Of a DNA stretch of 16,560 nt, positions 6,001-9,000 are shown piece after piece. A program made the position numbers. The DNA is from a virus (taxonomy: Duplodnaviria; Heunggongvirae; Uroviricota; Caudoviricetes). The DNA is taken from IMG/VR virus record IMGVR_UViG_2718218139_000004, positions 1 through 16,560 of that record. The stretch is one strand, 5' to 3'. Numbering within the stretch: position 1 is the first letter of the stretch; the number at the start of each line of letters is the position of its first letter.

Positions 6001-9000
6001 TTGGTACTGACTGATGGCGCTCTGGTCTGCGGCATTGTGGTATTGCTGTGGCCGATGATGAAAGAACAGAATGAATAATTCTTGACTTTTTTGTTTACTG
6101 TTTATTAAAAAATCAACCGCATGGTGAATCCTCCTTGGAGGGGCTAAATGATCGAGTTTTAAGGGCACGTAGCGAGTTCTGTTTGATCATTGCAGAACTT
6201 AGCGGGAGGCGCCATGCGTACATCACTAGTGTTATTCCTTTTATCATTTTCCTTGTGAGTTCTGGCTGCGCATTGCGCAGCCTTTTTTTTATGACCTGCC
6301 ACTGGCAGATGGTCATCCTGTGATTTGATTCCGGTTCCGGCTTTTTAACTCTGTTCCTGTACACGGGAGAAATTCGATGTCGATTAAACATTACGATGTT
6401 GTCAGGGCGGCGTCGCCGTCAGACCTTGCGGAAAAGCTGACACACAAACTGAAAGAGGGCTGGCAGCCATACGGCGGACCGGTTGCCATTACGCCGTACA
6501 CACTGATGCAGGCGGTGGCTATTGAAGGAGAGCCACAGGTCGGCCCTTCTAACCTGTATTTCAAAATCAGAGAGGACCGTCGTAAGGCGGCGCGGGGAGA
6601 GTAAAGCGATGAAGAAAAAATACGAACTGGTTGTTAAAGGGATAAATAATTACCCGGATAAGATTACTGTTACTGTGGCACCGGAAATTGGTGGGTATCC
6701 GTCACTGTTGTTGCCAGATGTGGCGATTAGTCTTGACCGTACTGAAGGAGCCACGCTGGAGTTTTACGAAGCTGAGGCGAAAAAGCAGGCGAAGCAGTTT
6801 TTCATGGATGTTGCTGCCGGGTTATGTGAAGGGGATGGTCCGTTGCCGGAAAAGCGGCCCATCATTTTAGAGGCGCAGGACGTGTTGATAACCTACAGAG
6901 GAAAGCTACCGGGAAGAATTACTGGTTCTCTGAAGACGCCACCGACGGCATTGCGGTCAGAAAAAGATGATATTGAATCACGTATTGAACAACTGGAGTG
7001 CTATATCTCTGAATTGAAAAAAGCACCCCAACAAAAGATGAGGTACTTGCATTAGACGAAATGAAAGAAACTATTCTTGATCTTGCGGCGCGTCTAAGCT
7101 GCGCTTCACGGTCGAAAGAGCATTTTCAGCAGCCCTGAGGAATCTTTTATCATCACGAGCATCGGTCTTTGGTATTTCTTTAATGAGATGTTCCATTTCG
7201 GCGATCAGGTAATCTGACACAGCGTTATTCTTACCAAGTGCATCCATGGCTTTGATTATCTTTGGGAGAAGAAAACCGACCTGTAACTCAAGAGTGAAAA
7301 TTCTGTCAAAAAGCGCTGTATTTTCTTCATTCATATCTGTTCATTATCTTTGCGAGGCAGCCATCTCACATTGTTGGGTTTACGCCAGTGCCCACCACCG
7401 GCGGGCTGAAGACTTAACATATCCAGGGGTCCGGAACCGATAAATCCTGATAAATATCCATGAACGCAAAAATCAGATACGGCCTGTCGGCTGCCGTTCT
7501 GGCGCTGATTGGTGCAGGGACGTCTGCGCCTGAAATCCTCGACCAGTTTCTTGACGAAAAAGAAGGTAACCACACCACGGCATACCGTGATGGTGCGGGG
7601 ATCTGGACCATATGCCGCGGTGCCACCCGAGTGGATGGTAAGCCTGTCGTCCCGGGTATGAAGTTATCGAAGGAAAAGTGCGACCAGGTTAACGCCATTG
7701 AACGTGATAAGGCGCTGGAGTGGGTGGAGCGCAATATTAAAGTACCGCTGACCGAACCCCAGAAGGCGGGTATCGCGTCATTTTGTCCTTATAACATTGG
7801 CCCCGGTAAGTGTTTCCCGTCTACGTTTTACAGACGGATTAATGCAGGTGATCGAAAAGGTGCCTGCGAAGCGATTCGCTGGTGGATTAAGGACGGTGGC
7901 AGAGACTGCCGTATCCGCTCAAATAATTGCTACGGTCAGGTATCCCGGCGAGACCAGGAAAGTGCACTGGCGTGCTGGGGAATTGACAGATAAGCAGAAT
8001 ATTTTGCTGAAAAATGACGTTGGCCAACGCGGGCGGATAACACGAAATCCTGCGAACTGGCAAAAACTAAGTGAATAAAAGTAAAACCCCGTTTGTTGGC
8101 TGCAAACGGGGTTTTGTGTTTCTGACCTTGAGTAAGGCAAGGGAGAACATGGGAAAGTATAAACGAATTCTGTTGAGATTGACTATGAAAAACGGCCTTG
8201 AACTGAAAGCGCCTGTAACTGATGACGTCAGCAGAGCGCTGGCTTTTGCTATTAAGTGGGTGGCGGTCGGTATTGCTGTGTCTCCGATGCTGTATGGGCT
8301 GGCAAAACTGGTCATTGCGTTGAAATCGTGAAGAGGATTAAGCATGTCAGACAAGCTCATAACGCTGGCGAAGATCCTCTGTGTAATCGTCGGCATTTCA
8401 TTTTCACTAATGCTGGTTGCTATTTGCTTTTCCACTGCCTGGCGCGTCTTAACTTTGTCATGGCTGGTGGGGTGAGGGGGATATGAACCGTGTTCTGTGT
8501 GTGGTGATTATTGTCCTGCTGGTAGCCTGTGGTGTGCTTAGTCTGGGGCTGAATCATTACCGCGATAACGCCATTACCTACAAAGCGCAACGCGATAAAA
8601 AAGCCAGTGAGCTGAAGCTGGCGAACGTGACAATTACTGATATGCAGGTACGCCAGCGTGATGTCGCTGCACTTGATGCCAGATACTCGAGGGAATTAGC
8701 CGATGCGAGAGCTGAAAATGAAACTCTGCGTGCTGATGTTGCCGCTGGTCGTAAGCGCCTGCGCATCAACGCCAACTGTCCAGGCTCCTTGCGTAAAGCC
8801 CCCATCACCTCCGGCGTGGATAATGCAACCGGTCCCCGACTGGCAGAAGCCGCTGAACGGGATTATTTCATCCTCAGAGAACGGCTGATGGCAATGCAGA
8901 AGCAACTGGAAGGAGCACAGGAATATATCCGTACCCAGTGTATACCGTGATGTTTTGTTATGAAGGTGTTACTGGTAACGTTAAGGTAATTTAACAAAGA

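What the first reader, a model, noticed from the sequence alone, without database searches (positions are those of the whole stretch)
6082..6360. pR'/tR'-like late leader followed by additional palindromes
TTGACT-N17-TTAAAA lies about 150 nt upstream of a textbook intrinsic terminator (GGCTGCG-cattg-CGCAGCC-T8), the geometry of the lambdoid pR'-qut-tR' unit that makes a short terminated RNA unless Q is present. Directly after the T-run come two more palindromes (ATGACCTGCCA-C-TGGCAgatGGTCAT and CCGGTTCCGG) before the first lysis-region ORF. With Q reduced to a stub, this leader would keep the lysis genes silent unless another antiterminator acts here.
Basis: partly seen in the sequence, partly recalled or inferred. 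Interest (0 to 1): 0.45.

Follow-up and report, generated by a model that had tools for sequence, protein, structure and literature searches.

The report
Known prophage small RNA gene pasD2
The promoter-plus-terminator unit is an exact copy of pasD2, a published Hfq-associated small regulatory RNA gene of pathogenic E. coli prophages, and not the phage late-gene control site, which lies 1.2 kb upstream next to an intact Q gene.

Summary
Window 6119-6290 (+) is identical, 172 of 172 nt, to PasD2. PasD2 is an Hfq-associated small RNA found by RIL-seq and confirmed by Northern blot in EPEC E2348/69, and it is a diverged relative of the Rfam family STnc100. The terminator is far beyond chance. The promoter match is not significant on its own, but relatives conserve it at a fixed distance from an invariant 5' end.

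The pR'/qut/tR' reading does not hold.
- An intact phage-82-type Q gene sits at 4217-4906.
- Directly after it come a promoter (4890-4918), an extended -10-like pause element at +6..+14 as described for phage 82 pR', and a terminator (4952-4981).
- The pasD RNA has no such pause element.
- The same pasD module follows two unrelated Q families, and a sibling STnc100 sits in the same slot in a phage with a third.

The two downstream palindromes are not conserved. The next ORF is a NanS-p::pinholin deletion remnant, so there is no holin. The element is already known and of low interest.

The parts
6082..6087 (+). -35 hexamer TTGACT of the pasD2 promoter
   Evidence: Read directly from the sequence. 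It aligns with TTGTCT of the STnc100 promoter in JLK-2012 at the same spacing. The family profile shows a conserved T near -36.
6105..6111 (+). -10 region (TTAAAA at 6105-6110, or TAAAAA at 6106-6111)
   Evidence: In 45 unique upstream regions of relatives, T at -13 and AAAA at -11..-8 are conserved at a fixed distance from the invariant RNA start. The match to TATAAT is weak (3-4 of 6, no T at the last position).
6119..6290 (+). pasD2 small RNA, 172 nt
   Evidence: Exact 172/172 match to NC_011601.1 741157-741328, the published PasD2. Full-length Rfam STnc100 alignment at 41.4 bits, E = 9e-8, below the gathering score of 47. Fold z-score -3.07.
6119..6217 (+). 5' structured domain, closed by GCAUGGUG (6119-6126) pairing with CGCCAUGC (6210-6217)
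   Evidence: Minimum-free-energy and centroid folds. The 5' motif GCAUGGUGAAUCC is shared with all family members, and the +1 G is invariant although the search pattern did not require it.
6174..6200 (+). Internal hairpin: arms 6174-6180 and 6194-6200
   Evidence: Four of its 7 pairs show compensatory double changes across 14 family members. The covariation score exceeds all 500 shuffles and all slid controls.
6251..6259 (+). Seed region CCUUGUGAG (core UGUGAG at 6254-6259)
   Evidence: Complementary to the CUCACA / CUCACAGG motif found in RIL-seq targets of PasD1 and PasD2 (PMC8550237 supplement). The reverse complement of the Northern probe matches 6251-6274 with the single mismatch the authors state for PasD2.
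6264..6290 (+). Intrinsic terminator: 8-bp GC-rich stem, 3-nt loop, U8 tract
   Evidence: Ranked first in the window scan. Stability -15.9 kcal/mol. None of 500 shuffles gives a hairpin of this class. The stem is kept through G-U wobble changes in PasD1 and JLK-2012.
6291..6316 (.). Imperfect palindrome ATGACCTGCCACTGGCAGATGGTCAT; no evidence of function
   Evidence: Three uncompensated substitutions in JLK-2012. The region folds no better than shuffles.
6331..6340 (.). 10-nt palindrome CCGGTTCCGG; chance-level
   Evidence: Reads CCGCTTCCGG in phage 434 and E2348/69 PP2. About 16 perfect 10-nt palindromes are expected per 16.5 kb (arithmetic).
4217..4906 (+). Intact phage-82-type antiterminator Q gene (context)
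   Evidence: PF06323 at E = 9e-91, covering profile positions 1-216 of 220. 90.9% nt identity to phage 82 Q in X92588.
4890..4981 (+). Probable true late control unit: -35 TTGCAA 4890-4895; -10 TATACT 4913-4918; +1 about A4925; extended -10-like pause element TG 4930-4931 plus TATGTT 4933-4938 (+6..+14); tR' hairpin 4952-4973 with T-run to 4981
   Evidence: The layout matches the published description of 82 pR' (PMC5001585). It is conserved in PhiR47_2 up to about 4940. It is replaced by a lambda-type pR' in PP4 and 2B8, with homology resuming at the terminator.
5076..5834 (+). 252-aa putative membrane protein gene (upstream gene of the inserted accessory module)
   Evidence: Annotated in phage 434 and RefSeq. 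No Pfam family.
5920..6078 (+). TciB / DUF3927 small membrane protein gene; its stop codon is 4 nt before the pasD -35
   Evidence: PF13064 at E = 3e-14; phage 434 annotation.
6377..6604 (+). Chimeric ORF: NanS-p (DUF1737) N-terminus fused to a pinholin C-terminus
   Evidence: Pfam DUF1737 plus a weak P21 holin match. tblastn against phage 434 matches esterase residues 1-59 and holin residues 51-68.
2568..2639 (+). Stub of lambda-type Q (first 24 codons)
   Evidence: tblastn with lambda Q gives 22 of 24 identical residues. Phage 434 carries the same fragment.

Best explanation
The interval is the gene for PasD2, a 172-nt Hfq-associated, trans-acting small RNA of the PasD/STnc100 group. It sits in an accessory cluster of a decayed lambdoid prophage: membrane protein, TciB, pasD, then nanS-p.

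Proposed mechanism:
- Host sigma-70 RNA polymerase starts at about G6119. The promoter has a near-consensus -35 (TTGACT) and a weak A-rich -10.
- Transcription ends at the strong intrinsic terminator, 6264-6290.
- The first ~100 nt fold into a conserved structured domain.
- The 3' part carries a U-rich stretch and the seed UGUGAG, just 5' of the terminator hairpin and U-tail. This is the usual Hfq-binding layout.
- Through the seed, the RNA pairs with CUCACA-containing mRNAs.

Shown: sequence identity with the published RNA, and the published ends, Northern blot, Hfq RIL-seq chimeras and target motif in EPEC.

Inferred: that the promoter is independent, and that the element is expressed in this particular strain.

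The element lies inside the late operon, downstream of the real Q82-type pR'/tR' at 4890-4981. Its terminator would therefore also stop polymerase not modified by Q and be read through by Q-modified polymerase. That follows from established knowledge of Q antitermination and was not tested.
For: - Exact 172/172 identity to PasD2.
- The probe and seed match as published.
- Synteny fits the published description: LpxR and Q within 10 kb, next to the sialic-acid esterase gene (bioRxiv 10.64898/2026.05.13.724894).
- Full-length STnc100 alignment, E = 9e-8. A bona fide STnc100 (107 bits) sits at the same position in JLK-2012.
- Promoter hexamers are conserved at a fixed distance across 45 distinct upstream regions, and the +1 G is invariant.
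- Helix covariation.
- The terminator is unique against 500 shuffles.
- 677 of 5,426 complete E. coli genomes carry the element at 95% identity or more, all on chromosomes.
- RIL-seq chimeras map to the 3' ~50 nt.
Against: - The published 5' end comes from RNA-seq coverage, not from a primary-transcript-specific method. Processing from a longer tciB transcript is therefore not excluded.
- The -10 is weak, and the promoter match alone is at chance level.
- The Rfam score is below the family's gathering threshold (41.4 against 47).
- RNA-seq in the hfq deletion strain showed no drop in PasD abundance.
- No expression data exist for this strain.
- No regulatory outcome on any target has been shown in the papers read.
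Confidence: 0.92

Rival explanations
1. One reading: the unit is the pR'-qut-tR' late leader. A constitutive late promoter makes a terminated RNA, and the terminator is overcome only when a Q protein loads at this site.
For: Promoter followed by a strong terminator, in the late-gene orientation, between Q and the lysis region. Such leaders do give abundant short RNAs, some of them Hfq-binding small RNAs (StxS and lambda 6S RNA; PMC7547250). The -35 TTGACT equals that of lambda pR'.
Against: - It lies 1.2 kb and two genes away from Q. A complete promoter, pause element and terminator unit sits directly after Q at 4890-4981.
- There is no -10-like element with A2/T6 in +1..+25 of the pasD RNA.
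- The identical promoter and RNA follow two Q families that show no detectable similarity to each other (BLASTP E = 4.1; PF06323 against PF03589). A sibling RNA follows a third family, PF06530.
- In each case the Q-specific promoter region ends at the shared tR' hairpin.
Confidence: 0.03
2. Same RNA, different origin. PasD2 is cut from, or is the terminated 3' end of, a longer transcript of the upstream membrane-protein/tciB genes. It would be a 3'-UTR-type small RNA rather than one started at its own promoter.
For: Same strand as tciB, and only 40 nt after its stop codon. Table S6 of PMC8550237 brackets PasD2 with the upstream gene. The -10 is weak and the promoter match is at chance level.
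Against: - The -35/-10 pattern and spacing are conserved in relatives whose upstream sequences differ, and conservation starts sharply at an invariant +1 G.
- RpoD binding at STnc100 promoters in Salmonella LT2 is reported by ChIP-exo, but only in a figure legend (PMC10794520).
Confidence: 0.1
3. The interval is protein-coding. Candidates are the 62-aa 'putative membrane protein' annotated in phage 434 (6135-6323), a 14-aa peptide (6215-6259), or the antisense ORF that RefSeq calls a hypothetical protein or pseudogene (6113-6391, minus strand).
For: GenBank and RefSeq annotations. A GGGAGG motif precedes an ATG at 6215. Some STnc100 copies in EDL933 carry ribosome footprints, with ribosome coverage values up to 3.2 (PMC5331693).
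Against: - A 1-nt indel between PasD1 and PasD2 shifts all three frames.
- None of these ORFs reaches a Pfam family's curated cut-off; the only hit is a sub-threshold one for the PasD1-locus antisense ORF (Sid-5, 18.9 bits against a cut-off of 27).
- The 62-aa ORF starts at TTG with a poor ribosome-binding site and runs through the terminator.
- The ATG is an insertion relative to the STnc100 consensus.
Confidence: 0.03

Closest known systems
PasD2 / PasD1 small RNAs of EPEC E2348/69 (Pearl Mizrahi et al. 2021, PMC8550237; Zhu, Shabalina and Storz 2026, bioRxiv 10.64898/2026.05.13.724894). The 2021 paper reports EcOnc13 of EHEC as a homologue.
   Same: Identical to PasD2 over all 172 nt. Same flanking genes (LpxR, Q, membrane protein, DUF3927/TciB upstream; esterase gene downstream), same seed and same terminator.
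   Different: Nothing in the RNA itself. Downstream, this prophage has lost most of nanS-p and the holin. Two flank positions (6335 and 6360) differ from E2348/69 PP2.
Rfam RF02076 STnc100 (prophage small RNA of Salmonella and E. coli, multi-copy in EHEC)
   Same: Invariant 5' end GCAUGGUGAAUCC, first hairpin, GGGAGGC motif, covarying internal hairpin, closing helix, and promoter pattern. It occupies the same slot between tciB and nanS-p in JLK-2012.
   Different: Scores 41.4 bits, below the gathering score of 47. BLAST does not link the two. The 3' seed region differs, so targets are expected to differ.
pR'-tR' short RNAs: lambda 6S RNA and StxS (PMC7547250)
   Same: A short terminated RNA made in lysogens from the late region. 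StxS is also Hfq-binding.
   Different: Those RNAs start at the Q-specific late promoter directly after Q and contain the qut pause element. Here that unit is at 4890-4981 and would give an RNA of only about 55 nt. pasD is a separate unit 1.2 kb downstream and does not depend on Q type.
Phage 82 pR' (sigma-70-dependent pause at +25; PMC5001585, PMC4914094)
   Same: This applies to window 4890-4949, not to the finding. The promoter follows an 82-type Q, there are three A residues at the start, and the extended -10-like element lies at +6..+14.
   Different: The discriminator at +15..+17 is GTA here, against GCC in phage 82 and PhiR47_2. The authentic phage 82 sequence could not be retrieved for a base-by-base comparison.

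Membership tests
PasD small RNA | Sequence matches the published PasD1/PasD2 transcript | tested here: met
   172/172 identity to PasD2 coordinates NC_011601.1 741157-741328; 5 differences (4 substitutions, 1 indel) from PasD1.
PasD small RNA | Seed UGUGAG immediately 5' of a Rho-independent terminator with a U-tract of at least 4 | tested here: met
   Seed at 6254-6259, hairpin at 6264-6282, U8 at 6283-6290.
PasD small RNA | Synteny: antiterminator Q and LpxR within 10 kb, next to the sialic-acid esterase gene | tested here: met
   LpxR at 2783-3742 (minus strand), Q at 4217-4906, NanS-p remnant at 6377.
PasD small RNA | Expressed as a discrete ~172-nt RNA that associates with Hfq | not testable with these tools
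   Shown for E2348/69 only (PMC8550237).
Rfam RF02076 STnc100 | Covariance-model score at or above the gathering score (47 bits) | tested here: not met
   41.4 bits, E = 9e-8, model positions 1-206 of 206. PasD1 scores 37.7 bits. The JLK-2012 sibling scores 107 bits.
Rfam RF02076 STnc100 | Shared 5' motif and structured 5' domain with covariation | tested here: met
Lambdoid pR'-qut-tR' late leader | Located directly downstream of the Q gene | tested here: not met
   It lies 1,176 nt after the Q stop codon with two genes between. Another unit fills that place at 4890-4981.
Lambdoid pR'-qut-tR' late leader | Sigma-70-dependent pause element (-10-like) in the first ~25 transcribed nt | tested here: not met
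   None with A2/T6 and at least 4/6 in +1..+25 of the pasD RNA. By contrast, TG-N-TATGTT lies at +6..+14 after the promoter at 4890-4918.
Lambdoid pR'-qut-tR' late leader | Promoter and Q-binding element specific to, and co-inherited with, the Q type | tested here: not met
   The same pasD promoter follows PF06323-type and PF03589-type Q genes.
Lambdoid pR'-qut-tR' late leader | Intrinsic terminator downstream of the promoter | tested here: met
Lambdoid pR'-qut-tR' late leader | Terminator read-through depends on Q loaded at this promoter | not testable with these tools
   Requires in vitro transcription or reporter assays.
Small membrane protein (434 CDS CPT_434_70) | Reading frame preserved among homologous loci | tested here: not met
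   A 1-nt indel between PasD1 and PasD2 shifts the frame. No Pfam hit.

The most novel reading that the evidence does not exclude
pasD may have a second role tied to its position inside the Q-dependent late operon. In the lysogen it would be a free trans-acting small RNA, and its strong terminator would act as a second gate that shields the downstream nanS-p and lysis genes from transcription started in the accessory cluster. On induction, Q-modified polymerase would read through it, so the PasD sequence becomes part of the long late mRNA. That would switch off the free small RNA, or turn it into a cis element or sponge. Separately, the ~100-nt 5' domain is conserved across PasD and STnc100 and has an invariant 5' end, yet no function has been assigned to it. 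It could bind a factor other than Hfq.
Probability: 0.12. Interest if true: 0.4.

Novelty: already known. Interest (0 to 1): 0.1.

Why it matters
Little is new here. The element is a published, Northern-validated small RNA, carried by about one in eight complete E. coli genomes (677 of 5,426).

The practical value is in correcting annotation:
- The RNA gene is not among the features that phage 434's GenBank record or the three RefSeq loci inspected list for this interval. They list doubtful ORFs on both strands instead.
- The true late control site of this prophage and of phage 434 can be placed at the end of the 82-type Q gene.
- The prophage keeps an intact, identical pasD2 even though its immunity and replication region and its holin are gone. 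This fits retention of the small RNA by the host.

Tried and rejected
- The Rfam scan at gathering thresholds found nothing in the window. The STnc100 relationship appeared only in E-value mode.
- BLAST in 'distant' mode with the element found only near-identical PasD copies and two partial promoter hits. It found no STnc100 relatives.
The same pattern in viral contigs did yield the family.
- I could not retrieve the authentic phage 82 pR' sequence. The GenBank record X92588 ends at Q, and the papers hold no sequence text or supplement. I used the papers' verbal description and the PhiR47_2 comparison instead.
- A search for 'EcOnc13' found no paper.
- Small-ORF readings (14 aa, 62 aa, antisense 92 aa) were rejected because a 1-nt indel shifts all frames and no hit reaches a Pfam family's curated cut-off.
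- The two palindromes were rejected as functional elements.
- The RNAalifold consensus differs in detail from the Rfam structure. Only the internal hairpin has real covariation, because the other helices never vary.
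Full report
**Observation**

- TTGACT at 6082-6087.
- TTAAAA at 6105-6110, after a 17-nt spacer.
- Hairpin GGCTGCGC-ATT-GCGCAGCC at 6264-6282, followed by T8 at 6283-6290.
- The 26-nt imperfect palindrome at 6291-6316.
- CCGGTTCCGG at 6331-6340.

The terminator is the best in the window. A hairpin of its class occurs in 0 of 500 dinucleotide-preserving shuffles. The promoter match fails the consensus scan, and its class is no more frequent than in shuffles (70 observed, 97 expected). By itself it therefore says nothing.

**Context**

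The window is a decayed lambdoid prophage of a pathogenic E. coli. The best matches are STEC and bovine isolates. Window 5850-6549 is 99.7% identical to phage 434. The gene order is:
- a 24-codon stub of lambda-type Q (2568-2639);
- LpxR on the minus strand;
- YlcG;
- an intact 82-type Q (4217-4906; PF06323, full length; 91% nt identity to phage 82 Q);
- a 252-aa membrane protein gene;
- TciB/DUF3927 (5920-6078);
- the finding;
- a DUF1737 ORF.

**Identity**

An Rfam scan in E-value mode aligned window 6089-6293 to the whole STnc100 model. The score was 41.4 bits against a gathering score of 47, with E = 9e-8.

A 2026 preprint (10.64898/2026.05.13.724894) reports that the EPEC small RNAs PasD1 and PasD2 are structural relatives of STnc100. 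It also reports that they lie within 10 kb of Q and LpxR in more than 98% of cases, next to a sialic-acid esterase gene.

Table S6 of the original RIL-seq paper (PMC8550237) gives PasD2 as NC_011601.1 741157-741328, plus strand, 172 nt. That sequence occurs exactly at window 6119-6290. The reverse complement of the authors' Northern probe matches 6251-6274 with the one mismatch they state for PasD2. The proposed seed UGUGAG lies at 6254-6259, and it pairs with the CUCACA motif found in RIL-seq targets.

The published RNA runs from 6119 to 6290.

The promoter plus RNA occurs at 95% identity or more in 677 of 5,426 complete E. coli genomes, always on the chromosome.

**Promoter and RNA structure in relatives**

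A pattern scan of viral contigs recovered about 100 family copies. In 45 distinct upstream regions aligned on the RNA start, conservation is confined to a few positions:
- T near -36;
- TT at -17/-16;
- T at -13;
- AAAA at -11..-8;
- a G at +1, which is invariant although the search pattern did not require it.

In phage JLK-2012 a bona fide STnc100 (107 bits) occupies the same slot between tciB and nanS-p. Its TTGTCT-N17-TTAAAA aligns with the window's TTGACT-N17-TTAAAA, while the spacer sequences differ. Conserved hexamers and spacing around a divergent spacer are the expected signature of a promoter.

Across 14 diverse members, the internal hairpin (window 6174-6180 pairing with 6194-6200) has four pairs with compensatory double changes. 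Its covariation score exceeds all 500 shuffles and all slid controls. The 172-nt RNA folds with a z-score of -3.07.

**Coding rivals**

A 1-nt indel between PasD1 and PasD2 shifts three frames: the 14-aa ORF, the 62-aa ORF annotated in phage 434, and the antisense ORF annotated in RefSeq. None of these ORFs reaches a Pfam family's curated cut-off; the PasD1-locus antisense ORF gives only a sub-threshold Sid-5 hit (18.9 bits against 27).

**Why this is not pR'/qut/tR'**

1. A promoter lies directly after the 82-type Q gene: TTGCAA at 4890-4895 and TATACT at 4913-4918. The inferred start is A4925, the first of three A residues. An extended -10-like element follows (TG 4930-4931, TATGTT 4933-4938, which is +6..+14). 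A terminator closes the unit (4952-4973 plus the T-run; -12.5 kcal/mol).
2. This layout matches the published description of phage 82 pR'. That description has a -10-like pause element with an extended -10 directly before the discriminator at +15..+17, and a pause at +25 (PMC5001585).
3. Phage PhiR47_2 has the same Q type and conserves this stretch up to about +15, with GCC at +15..+17 as in phage 82. It then diverges and runs straight into the holin gene.
4. The pasD RNA has no such element in its first 25 nt.
5. In prophage PP4 of E2348/69, Q is 98% identical to lambda Q and shows no detectable similarity to the window's Q. It is followed by a lambda-like pR'. Homology to the window resumes at the tR' hairpin and continues through the membrane protein gene, tciB and PasD1. 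Phage 2B8 has the same arrangement.
6. JLK-2012 has a third Q family (PF06530), with the sibling STnc100 in the same slot.

The Q-specific control region is therefore the one next to Q. pasD belongs to a downstream module that is independent of Q type.

**Palindromes and the next ORF**

The 6284-6380 region folds no better than shuffles (z = 0.20). The first palindrome has three uncompensated changes in JLK-2012. The second is broken in phage 434 and in PP2.

ORF 6377-6604 consists of NanS-p residues 1-59 fused to the last 18 residues of an S21-type pinholin. Most of the esterase gene and the first ~50 holin codons are deleted.

**Mechanism**

Shown in EPEC by others: a discrete ~172-nt RNA, abundant under virulence-inducing conditions, recovered in Hfq chimeras mainly through its 3' ~50 nt.

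Inferred here:
- an independent sigma-70 promoter;
- expression in this strain;
- that the pasD terminator stops polymerase not modified by Q and is read through after Q loads at 4890-4949. This last point follows from established Q biology (PMC7547250; PMC4914094).

**Verdict**

This is an already known element, correctly spotted as a short transcription unit but assigned the wrong role.

Noticed in passing
window 4890-4981: The probable true late control unit lies directly after the 82-type Q gene: promoter, extended -10-like pause element at +6..+14, and a terminator. It would give a leader of only about 55 nt. Phage 434's GenBank record annotates only the terminator here.
   Followed up: yes
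window 6377-6604: The ORF is a chimera. Residues 1-59 are the NanS-p esterase N-terminus (DUF1737), and the last 18 residues are the C-terminus of an S21-type pinholin. A deletion has removed most of nanS-p and the first ~50 holin codons, so the lysis cassette has no holin.
   Followed up: yes
window 2568-2639, with 2783-3742 on the minus strand: The first 24 codons of lambda-type Q (22 of 24 identical) are followed by an LpxR lipid A deacylase gene on the opposite strand, then YlcG and the 82-type Q. The same recombination scar is present in phage 434.
   Followed up: partly
window 4913-4982: A weak Rfam match to STnc240 (28 bits, gathering score 55, E = 0.13) coincides with the predicted pR'-tR' leader. 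Whether STnc240 is a late-leader RNA of Salmonella prophages was not checked.
   Followed up: no
window 6135-6323 (+) and 6113-6391 (-); L001 4286-4474; L004 3801-4199: Public annotations place a 62-aa 'putative membrane protein' (phage 434) and antisense hypothetical proteins or pseudogenes (RefSeq) over the pasD gene. The frames are not conserved between PasD1 and PasD2, so these ORFs are probably spurious.
   Followed up: partly
IMG/VR loci L134, L146, L147, L158, L172, and many others: STnc100-type copies occur in tandem about 468 nt apart. Many copies have a conserved CTCACAATTCAG box 50-60 nt upstream of the RNA start. CUCACA is the complement of the PasD seed UGUGAG.
   Followed up: no
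window 14411-15229 (-) and 15742-16560 (+): Two inverted copies of a 272-aa ORF, probably an insertion sequence, carry identical hairpins at 15078-15095 and 15876-15893. Close relatives of this prophage carry IS3-family elements elsewhere.
   Followed up: no
window 5051-5100: Promoter-like sites (TTGACG at 5051-5056; TTGTTA-18-TATCAT with an upstream TG at 5071-5100) lie just before the 252-aa membrane protein gene. This stretch is conserved in PP2, PP4 and 2B8, and may be the accessory cluster's own promoter.
   Followed up: no
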